A stretch of DNA of 64,000 bases from Escherichia coli. GTDB taxonomy: Bacteria > Pseudomonadota > Gammaproteobacteria > Enterobacterales > Enterobacteriaceae. The DNA lies in NCBI RefSeq assembly GCF_003334815.1, contig NZ_QOWO01000005.1; one strand, written 5' to 3'. A program made the translations under genes and the position numbers. The notes beneath the pieces were generated by a model. The model searched no databases. It had not been told where the DNA came from and saw only the letters and a list, made by a program, of their open reading frames with translations. Below, one piece after another: positions 63,054 through 63,104 of the stretch; position 1 is the first letter of the stretch; the number at the start of each line of letters is the position of its first letter.

Positions 63054-63104
63054 TAATAACCGGGCAGGCCATGTCTGCCCGTATTTCGCGTAAGGAAATC
63101 CATT

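What the first reader, a model, noticed from the sequence alone, without database searches (positions are those of the whole stretch)
63054..63104. lacZ-lacY intercistronic hairpin
gggcaggccatgtctgccc (about 63062-63080) forms a short GC hairpin between the lacZ stop and the lacY start. This is the known intercistronic structure affecting polarity and mRNA processing in the lac operon.
Basis: partly seen in the sequence, partly recalled or inferred. Interest (0 to 1): 0.1.

Follow-up and report, generated by a model that had tools for sequence, protein, structure and literature searches.

The report
lacZ-lacY intergenic RNA hairpin
A short GC-rich RNA hairpin really sits between the E. coli lacZ stop and the lacY start; it is the long-known structure at the lacZ mRNA 3' end (weak terminator or decay barrier), so it is ordinary, although a hairpin at this spot turns out to be conserved across many enterobacterial lac operons.

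Summary
CGGGCAG (63061-63067) pairs with CTGCCCG (63075-63081). As RNA the stem extends to 9 bp through a G.U and a C-G pair, leaving the loop CAU. It lies in the 51-nt spacer between the lacZ stop (63051-63053) and the lacY ATG (63105). The spacer folds at -17.9 kcal/mol (z = -2.7), and no Rfam family covers it.

- **Within E. coli:** the sequence is identical in about 91% of 5,399 records. All four variants I read carry the same change, in the loop.
- **Across species:** about 50 other Enterobacterales lacZ-lacY spacers carry a GC-rich hairpin 17-26 nt upstream of the lacY ATG. In the 31-sequence GGGCAGG family, 91% of cells pair, against 33-50% in slid controls. Five of nine pairs show compensatory changes. 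Wobbles favour the sense strand.
- **More distant genera:** they have unrelated stem sequences at the same place.
- **U-tract:** it is weak in E. coli (UAUUUCGC) and variable elsewhere.

Best reading: a sense-strand mRNA hairpin that defines and protects the 3' end of monocistronic lacZ mRNA. It does so by weak termination and/or by blocking exonucleases after intergenic cleavage, and so contributes to Z>Y>A polarity. This matches Murakawa 1991 and McCormick 1991, which I could read only through citing papers.

Verdict: already known; low interest.

The parts
63051..63059 (+). lacZ stop codon TAA followed by two more in-frame TAA codons (TAATAATAA). This forms an A-rich stretch just upstream of the stem.
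   Evidence: Sequence; the lacZ ORF 59979-63053; RefSeq lacZ annotation under identical matches.
63061..63069 (+). 5' arm of the hairpin, CGGGCAGGC.
   Evidence: Inverted repeat I2; RNAfold structure; arm columns conserved and covarying in 31 species.
63070..63072 (+). Loop CAU. If the G.U and C-G closing pairs are open, the loop is the 7 nt GCCAUGU (63068-63074).
   Evidence: The loop is the variable part. The only E. coli polymorphism I read (C63070T, 4 of 4 variant records) lies here, and loop sequences differ freely between species.
63073..63081 (+). 3' arm of the hairpin, GUCUGCCCG.
63082..63089 (+). Tail UAUUUCGC, a weak, interrupted U-tract with 4 U in 8 nt. It is AU-rich and single-stranded, and is a possible endonuclease or weak-termination segment.
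   Evidence: Sequence. It does not meet the terminator criterion of the scan on the + strand. Tails in homologues average 3.2 U of 8, against 24% T elsewhere in the spacers.
63092..63097 (+). lacY Shine-Dalgarno AAGGAA, 7 nt upstream of the ATG.
   Evidence: Sequence; AAGGA is nearly invariant in the alignment; this spacer is used as the lacY SD-bearing sequence in PMC8136817.
63105..63107 (+). lacY start codon. The gene runs off the window end.
   Evidence: tblastn of LacY against 80 loci; RefSeq lacY annotation.

Best explanation
The element is a hairpin in the sense-strand lacZYA mRNA, immediately after the lacZ stop codons. It marks and protects the 3' end of a monocistronic lacZ mRNA.

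Some RNA polymerases stop at the hairpin plus its weak U-tract (leaky factor-independent termination). In addition, or instead, the full-length transcript is cut in the AU-rich single-stranded segment just downstream, and 3'-to-5' exonucleases are then blocked at the base of the stem. Either route gives lacZ mRNA that is more abundant and longer-lived than lacY-lacA mRNA. This contributes to the natural Z>Y>A polarity and uncouples the decay of the two parts.

Shown here: the structure, its statistical support, its strand, and its conservation and covariation.

Taken from the literature: 3' ends, cleavage and a weak terminator exist in this spacer.

Inferred: that the mapped ends sit at this stem, and the relative weight of termination against processing.
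For: Structure and significance:
- A 9-bp stem; the spacer folds at -17.9 kcal/mol with z = -2.72. The same hairpin persists in a 151-nt context.

Conservation within E. coli:
- 4,909 of 5,399 E. coli records are identical over 90 nt.
- The 4 variants I read all carry the same loop change, C63070T.
- The E. coli species representative L002 turns the G.U pair into G-C.

Conservation across species:
- About 50 lacZ-lacY spacers from other Enterobacterales carry a GC-rich hairpin.
- In the 31-sequence GGGCAGG family, 91.4% of cells pair, against 33-50% when the partners are slid. Five of nine pairs change on both sides. The covariation score is 0.279 against 0.168 in shuffles (0 of 500 reach it).
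- Rahnella, Mixta, Tatumella, Rouxiella, Serratia and some Pantoea have quite different stem sequences at the same position.
- All 14 other spacers tested have negative z-scores, from -0.6 to -4.75.

Strand:
- Interior wobbles are G.U (tolerated only in sense RNA) 20 times, against A.C 6 times. Within the GGGCAGG family the count is 9 to 0.
- The E. coli antisense fold is weaker, -14.9 kcal/mol with z = -1.53.

Literature (through citing papers):
- A weak terminator lies between lacZ and lacY (PMC4562236 on Murakawa 1991).
- Intergenic cleavage or processing occurs, and lacZ and lacA mRNAs have independent half-lives.
- RNase E cleavage in the spacer stabilises lacZ mRNA, and lacZ transcripts are several-fold more abundant than ZYA transcripts.
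Against: - The U-tract is poor (UAUUUCGC). It fails the scan's + strand terminator criterion, so intrinsic termination can only be weak.
- In many homologues the tail is not U-rich at all (Rahnella has 2-3 U of 8). The conserved role therefore cannot be classical intrinsic termination everywhere.
- Comparing whole-spacer MFE on the two strands does not favour the sense strand (24 against 24).
- Lineages with very short spacers (L042, L061, L062, L063, L066) have no hairpin, so the hairpin is dispensable for a working lacZY operon.
- No 3'-end mapping data could be examined here, and the primary papers were not readable.
Confidence: 0.72

Rival explanations
1. The hairpin works mainly for lacY. 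It is held at a fixed short distance upstream of the lacY ribosome-binding site. There it either acts as a 5' stem-loop that protects the processed lacY-lacA mRNA from 5'-end-dependent decay, or insulates the lacY SD from pairing with lacZ-distal sequence.
For: In loci with spacers of 85 nt or less, the distance from the stem to the lacY ATG is tightly kept at 17-26 nt, even where the stems are unrelated in sequence. The distance from the lacZ stop to the stem ranges from 4 to 43 nt. In Pseudocitrobacter and the Cedecea group, the extra sequence lies upstream of the hairpin rather than between it and the SD.
Against: A stem, an 8-10-nt tail, an SD and a spacer add up to about 21-26 nt anyway, so the spacing may only reflect minimal packing. 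A protective 5' hairpin would require cleavage upstream of the stem, inside or right after the stop codons; citing papers instead describe the cleavage as stabilising the lacZ part. The predicted small helix between the tail and the SD has no covariation support (64% paired, the same as slid controls).
Confidence: 0.12
2. It is a translation-sensitive attenuator. A ribosome terminating at the lacZ stop codons covers the first bases of the 5' arm, so tight transcription-translation coupling suppresses hairpin formation and termination, while uncoupling allows them. lacY/lacA output would then track lacZ translation.
For: The stem starts 8 nt after the first stop codon. From general knowledge of ribosome footprints (about 10 nt downstream of the A site), a terminating ribosome would reach about 63063, overlapping 63061-63063. 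In several homologues the stem starts only 4-7 nt after the stop.
Against: The overlap in E. coli is only about 3 nt. In many homologues the stem starts 13-43 nt after the stop, out of reach of a terminating ribosome, so the arrangement is not conserved. PMC4562236 states that a switch role for this terminator was only speculated, without experimental evidence.
Confidence: 0.08
3. It acts on the DNA or on the opposite strand, or it is a chance palindrome. The options are a binding site for a dimeric protein, a terminator for antisense transcription, or a repeated (REP-like) element.
For: The scan calls a terminator-like site on the - strand, because the reverse complement of TAATAATAA supplies a T-rich tail. 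A promoter-like match also lies on the - strand at 63077-63050. Perfect palindromes can be protein sites.
Against: Sense-strand G.U wobbles far outnumber A.C, and the antisense fold is weaker. Loop length and sequence vary freely, and distant genera have unrelated stems, which does not fit a sequence-specific DNA site. The element is single-copy in the window and one place per genome at the median; it does not resemble the REP-like hairpin seen in the lacY-lacA spacer of L001. Chance is excluded by conservation and covariation. The - strand tail is simply the lacZ stop codons.
Confidence: 0.03

Closest known systems
The E. coli lacZ-lacY 'intergenic terminator' and lac mRNA intercistronic processing site (Murakawa et al. 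1991, J Bacteriol 173:28; McCormick et al. 1991, NAR 19:2767; Cannistraro et al. 1986, J Mol Biol 192:257)
   Same: Same locus and same sequence: the window is 100% identical to E. coli K-12 and most other E. coli here. This is the only stable structure in the 51-nt spacer to which those studies assign a weak terminator and cleavage sites.
   Different: Nothing differs in the sequence. I found no mention of this in the papers I could search.
Leaky intrinsic (Rho-independent) terminators inside operons
   Same: A GC-rich 7-9-bp stem with a short loop, followed by a U-containing tail, placed between two cistrons, with readthrough to downstream genes. Some homologues have canonical tails, for example Superficieibacter CCC-UUUUUUGCG and Citrobacter CCC-UUAUUUUG.
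   Different: The E. coli tail has only 4 U in 8 nt and is interrupted. Many homologues lack any U-tract.
Intercistronic 3' stabiliser hairpins that block exonucleases (REP-type, as in malE-malF; recalled from general knowledge)
   Same: A stem-loop after an upstream cistron that would protect the upstream mRNA from 3'-to-5' exonucleases and give unequal expression within an operon.
   Different: It is not a REP element. It is single-copy, shorter, and lacks the REP consensus. A true REP-like hairpin lies in the next spacer, lacY-lacA, as seen in L001.

Membership tests
Intrinsic (Rho-independent) terminator | GC-rich RNA hairpin (stem of about 5-12 bp, loop of 3-8 nt) on the transcribed strand | tested here: met
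   A 7 WC / 9-bp stem with 6-7 G-C pairs and a loop of 3 (or 7) nt. The stem alone is -15.2 kcal/mol.
Intrinsic (Rho-independent) terminator | U-tract directly after the stem (at least 5 U in 8 nt under the scan's rule) | tested here: not met
   The tail UAUUUCGC has 4 of 8. The site is not called on the + strand. Homologues range from 1 to 6 U.
Intrinsic (Rho-independent) terminator | Transcript 3' ends produced at the U-tract in vitro by RNA polymerase alone and in vivo | not testable with these tools
   [quoted passage not shown] The primary paper is not held.
Exonuclease-blocking 3' hairpin left by endonucleolytic processing | Stable stem-loop with an adjacent AU-rich single-stranded segment available for RNase E-type cleavage | tested here: met
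   The hairpin is followed by the unpaired GUAUUUCG. The proposed pairing of this tail with the SD has no comparative support.
Exonuclease-blocking 3' hairpin left by endonucleolytic processing | Upstream mRNA more stable or abundant than downstream mRNA, dependent on the stem and on RNase E | not testable with these tools
   Citing papers report RNase E cleavage in the lacZY spacer that stabilises lacZ mRNA, and several-fold more lacZ than ZYA transcript. Dependence on the stem was not checked here.
REP (repetitive extragenic palindromic) element | Multi-copy family with a conserved REP consensus | tested here: not met
   One copy in the 64 kb; a median of one place per genome for the 90-nt and 251-nt queries. 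The sequence is unlike the REP-like GTCGGATGCGGCG...CGCCTTATCCGAC hairpin in the lacY-lacA spacer of L001.
Curated RNA family (Rfam 15) | Match to a covariance model at or near its gathering score | tested here: not met
   The only hit in 62500-64000 is a chance miRNA match elsewhere (E = 1.5, 18 bits against a gathering score of 197).
Conserved structured RNA element (general criterion) | Base pairs kept through compensatory changes in homologous sequences | tested here: met
   Five of nine pairs change on both sides; 91.4% of cells pair against 33-50% in slid controls; 0 of 500 shuffles reach the covariation score.

The most novel reading that the evidence does not exclude
The hairpin may be more than a leftover weak terminator. 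It could be a positively selected, position-locked tuning element of Enterobacterales lacZY operons. It is replaced by unrelated stems in different genera but always sits about 17-26 nt before the lacY ATG. In this reading it sets the LacZ:LacY stoichiometry by combining protection of the lacZ 3' end with control of the lacY 5' context, possibly sensitive to ribosome occupancy at the lacZ stop.
Probability: 0.15. Interest if true: 0.3.

Novelty: already known. Interest (0 to 1): 0.1.

Why it matters
This is a textbook locus. The hairpin helps explain why the three lac genes, although co-transcribed, give unequal amounts of mRNA and protein, and why lacZ mRNA decays independently of lacY-lacA mRNA. 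That has been known in outline since 1986-1991. The small addition here is that a hairpin at this position is kept across many genera, by covariation and by replacement with unrelated stems. This argues that it is selected rather than incidental, and it gives a natural set of variants (with and without U-tracts) for separating termination from exonuclease blocking. The finding does not open a new question.

Tried and rejected
- **Rfam scan of 62500-64000.** No family matched.
- **Primary literature.** Murakawa 1991 (PMC207152) and McCormick 1991 (PMC328199) are not held, and a further look-up by PubMed id also failed. I could not verify the exact mapped 3' and 5' ends and relied on citing papers.
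- **Searching papers for the hairpin sequence itself.** This found only primer and construct listings. Further Murakawa/Nierlich searches added nothing.
- **Strand test by whole-spacer MFE, sense against antisense, in 48 spacers.** Inconclusive at 24 against 24, p = 0.48. I replaced it with the count of interior G.U against A.C.
- **A second small helix pairing the U-rich tail (63083-63087) with the lacY SD (63095-63099), predicted by RNAfold.** Rejected: 64% paired, the same as slid controls, with no covariation excess.
- **The - strand terminator call at 63081-63061.** Rejected as an artefact, because its 'T-tract' is the complement of the TAATAATAA stop codons.
- **REP element.** Rejected: single-copy and no consensus.
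- **RNase III site.** Rejected from general knowledge, because a 9-bp stem is far too short.
- **A match of GU/AUU after the stem to the RNase E 'RN|WUU' preference (recalled).** Considered, but the motif carries too little information to count as evidence.
- **The d'Aubenton-Carafa terminator score.** I did not compute it because I could not verify the formula from memory.

Full report
**What is there.** The end of the window holds lacI (58765-59856), lacZ (59979-63053) and the first 298 codons of lacY, whose ATG is at 63105. A 251-nt query across the junction is 100% identical to many E. coli chromosomes, where RefSeq annotates lacZ and lacY under the match. The lacZ stop TAA (63051-63053) is followed by two more in-frame TAA codons. 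The spacer to the lacY ATG is 51 nt (63054-63104).

The perfect inverted repeat is CGGGCAG 63061-63067 / CTGCCCG 63075-63081. As RNA it extends through G63068.U63074 and C63069-G63073 to a 9-bp stem with the loop CAU. After the stem come UAUUUCGCGU, the lacY Shine-Dalgarno AAGGAA (63092-63097) and the ATG.

**Is it more than chance?** Four results say yes.
- The spacer folds at -17.9 kcal/mol, against -10.3 +/- 2.8 for dinucleotide shuffles (z = -2.72; 2 of 200 fold as well). The hairpin survives in a 151-nt context.
- The arm pattern occurs once in the 64 kb, against 0.11 expected.
- Only nine uninterrupted hairpins of -15 kcal/mol or better exist on the + strand of the whole window. From that count I estimate under 1% chance that one falls in a given 51-nt interval.
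- The opposite strand folds less well, at -14.9 kcal/mol with z = -1.53, because the G.U pair becomes a C.A mismatch.

**Variation within E. coli.** Over a 90-nt query centred on the hairpin, 4,909 of 5,399 records are identical and 490 differ, mostly at one base. All four variant records I read carry the same change, C63070T, in the loop. The GTDB E. coli representative (L002) has a loop change plus U63074C, which converts the G.U pair to G-C. One strain (21220) has IS1 inserted in the hairpin loop, right after GGGCAGGC, with lacY lost.

**Comparison across species.** One scan of species-representative genomes with the LacY fragment returned 80 loci. In about 60 of them a lacZ homologue lies directly upstream. 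I extracted each lacZ-stop-to-lacY-ATG spacer and folded it. Nearly every spacer of about 37-85 nt holds one dominant GC-rich hairpin.

One large family keeps the stem GGGCAGG/CCUGCCC while the loops vary freely. It includes Escherichia, Citrobacter, Klebsiella, Kluyvera, Pseudocitrobacter, Pantoea ananatis and P. allii, Budvicia, Superficieibacter, Salmonella diarizonae, Cedecea, Dryocola, Buttiauxella and Winslowiella.

On a 31-sequence MAFFT alignment (A1) the 9-pair helix gave these counts:

| Measure | Observed | Control |
|---|---|---|
| Cells forming a standard pair | 91.4% | 33-50% with the 3' partners slid by 1-3 columns |
| Pairs changed on both sides | 5 of 9 | 1-3 of 9 in the slid versions |
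| Covariation score | 0.279 | 0.168 in shuffles (0 of 500 reach the observed value) |

The double-sided changes include G-C to U-A in Kluyvera and C-G to U-A at the loop-closing pair. The shuffle control ignores the relatedness of the sequences; the slid control does not, and it agrees.

More distant genera have entirely different stems at the same place. Examples are Rahnella/Ewingella (GCGCCGCGGCG...), Mixta (CCGGAGCGG...), Tatumella, Rouxiella, Serratia spp., and Pantoea sp. 1.19 and IMH. Fourteen such spacers all have negative z-scores, from -0.6 to -4.75. Lineages with very short spacers (9-29 nt or overlapping genes: L042, L061, L062, L063, L066) have no hairpin. Pectobacterium has long spacers of 134-299 nt with several other structures.

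**Which strand and which molecule?** I allowed both G.U and A.C as 'pairs' inside stems bounded by Watson-Crick pairs. Interior G.U, which is tolerated only in sense-strand RNA, occurs 20 times. A.C, which would be G.U on the antisense strand, occurs 6 times, all at one outer position of the Rahnella group. In the GGGCAGG family the count is 9 to 0. These cells are not independent events; I estimate at least six separate G.U events against none. This favours a sense-strand RNA structure over a DNA palindrome or an antisense RNA. A cruder comparison of whole-spacer MFE on the two strands was uninformative (24 against 24).

**Terminator or decay barrier?**
- The E. coli tail has 4 U in 8 nt and is interrupted, so the scan does not call a + strand terminator.
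- The scan's - strand call only reflects the complement of TAATAATAA.
- Across 46 distinct spacers the 8-nt tail averages 3.2 U (40%), against 24% T in the rest of the spacer. Values run from 1 to 6.
- Some species have canonical tails, such as Superficieibacter UUUUUUGCG and Citrobacter UUAUUUUG. Rahnella has none.

The hairpin is therefore the conserved feature and the U-tract is optional. This fits a role that depends on the stem itself, namely protecting a 3' end, with leaky intrinsic termination added in some lineages, probably weakly in E. coli. A small second helix between the tail and the lacY SD, predicted by RNAfold, is not supported comparatively.

**Position.** In spacers of 85 nt or less, the stem ends 17-26 nt before the lacY ATG, while the distance from the lacZ stop to the stem is 4-43 nt. 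This may be simple packing of tail, SD and spacer. It also leaves room for a minor role in the lacY 5' context. In E. coli a ribosome sitting on the lacZ stop would reach only the first three or so bases of the stem (inference from general footprint sizes). In many species the stem is out of its reach, so a ribosome-sensed attenuator is not a conserved design.

**Literature.** The primary papers are not in the library. Citing papers state the following.
- lac mRNA is processed or cleaved between lacZ and lacY (Lim & Kennell 1979, Cannistraro 1986, McCormick 1991).
- lacZ and lacA mRNAs have independent half-lives.
- lacZ transcripts are several-fold more abundant than ZYA transcripts, and RNase E cleavage in the lacZY spacer stabilises the lacZ part.
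- A weak terminator lies between lacZ and lacY, and a regulatory switch role for it was only speculated (PMC4562236 on Murakawa et al. 1991).

Since this hairpin is the only stable structure in the spacer, I infer that it is the structure those studies refer to.

**Verdict.** The element is already known, and interest is low (0.1). The comparative conservation is a modest addition.

Noticed in passing
L085 (E. coli strain 21220, NZ_CM190153.1) 2501-3300; corresponds to window 63069/63070: An IS1 element is inserted in the loop of the hairpin, directly after GGGCAGGC. lacY and the downstream genes are replaced, and ykgH follows the IS1. The hairpin is thus the junction of an IS1-mediated deletion in this strain.
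   Followed up: partly
window 62754-63404, against the plasmid collection: About 1,300 plasmids carry a lacZ-lacY junction at least 99% identical to E. coli's, hairpin region included. They are mostly conjugative Klebsiella pneumoniae plasmids, with some from Enterobacter, Leclercia, Raoultella and Citrobacter. This points to recent horizontal spread of the E. coli-type lac operon.
   Followed up: no
L001 (Escherichia whittamii) 3755-3818, the lacY-lacA spacer (outside the window): The next spacer of the operon holds a REP-like hairpin (GTCGGATGCGGCGCGAGCGCCTTATCCGAC, -19.2 kcal/mol). It is a different kind of element from the lacZ-lacY hairpin.
   Followed up: partly
window 60168-60195: A strong perfect hairpin lies inside lacZ, about 190 nt after the ATG: TTTCCGGCACCAGAAGCGGTGCCGGAAA, 11 bp, -19.8 kcal/mol on both strands. 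It may relate to the intragenic lacZ termination sites described by Ruteshouser & Richardson 1989; I did not check.
   Followed up: no
window 59933-59969: The hairpin scan also picks up the palindrome around the lac operator O1 (TGTGTGAAATTGTGAGCGGATAACAATTTCACACA). The lac promoter-like site at 59905-59934 appears in the promoter scan.
   Followed up: no
L035 (contig labelled Chryseobacterium sp. 18061, CACSKA010000006.1): A contig labelled as a Bacteroidota genome carries an enterobacterial-type lacZY. Its LacY is 86% identical to E. coli's, and its spacer and hairpin closely resemble those of Dryocola and Buttiauxella. It is probably a mislabelled or contaminated assembly, or a recent transfer.
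   Followed up: no
L039, L048, L051, L053, L054, L056, L057 (Pectobacterium spp.), lacZ-lacY spacers of 134-299 nt: Pectobacterium lacZ-lacY spacers are much longer. They contain repeated modules, such as ...TATATCCGCCGTCAAAATAAACGCTGCGGATAT..., and long imperfect palindromes that look like inserted repeat elements. They differ in number between species.
   Followed up: no
L016, L017, L020 (Pseudocitrobacter), first 40 nt of the spacer: An extra AT-rich hairpin (TTCATTC...GAATGAA) lies between the lacZ stop and the conserved GGGCAGG hairpin.
   Followed up: no
L069 (Leclercia adecarboxylata NCTC13032): Both the lacZ and lacY alignments are broken: lacZ stops aligning at residue 288 of the last 300, and LacY aligns only from residue 74. 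This suggests frameshifts or assembly indels, so the locus was left out of the spacer analysis.
   Followed up: no
window 8114-8141, 34592-34625, 25885-25914 (- strand): These are other very stable perfect hairpins in the window (-22 to -25 kcal/mol), probably terminators of unrelated genes. I did not examine them.
   Followed up: no
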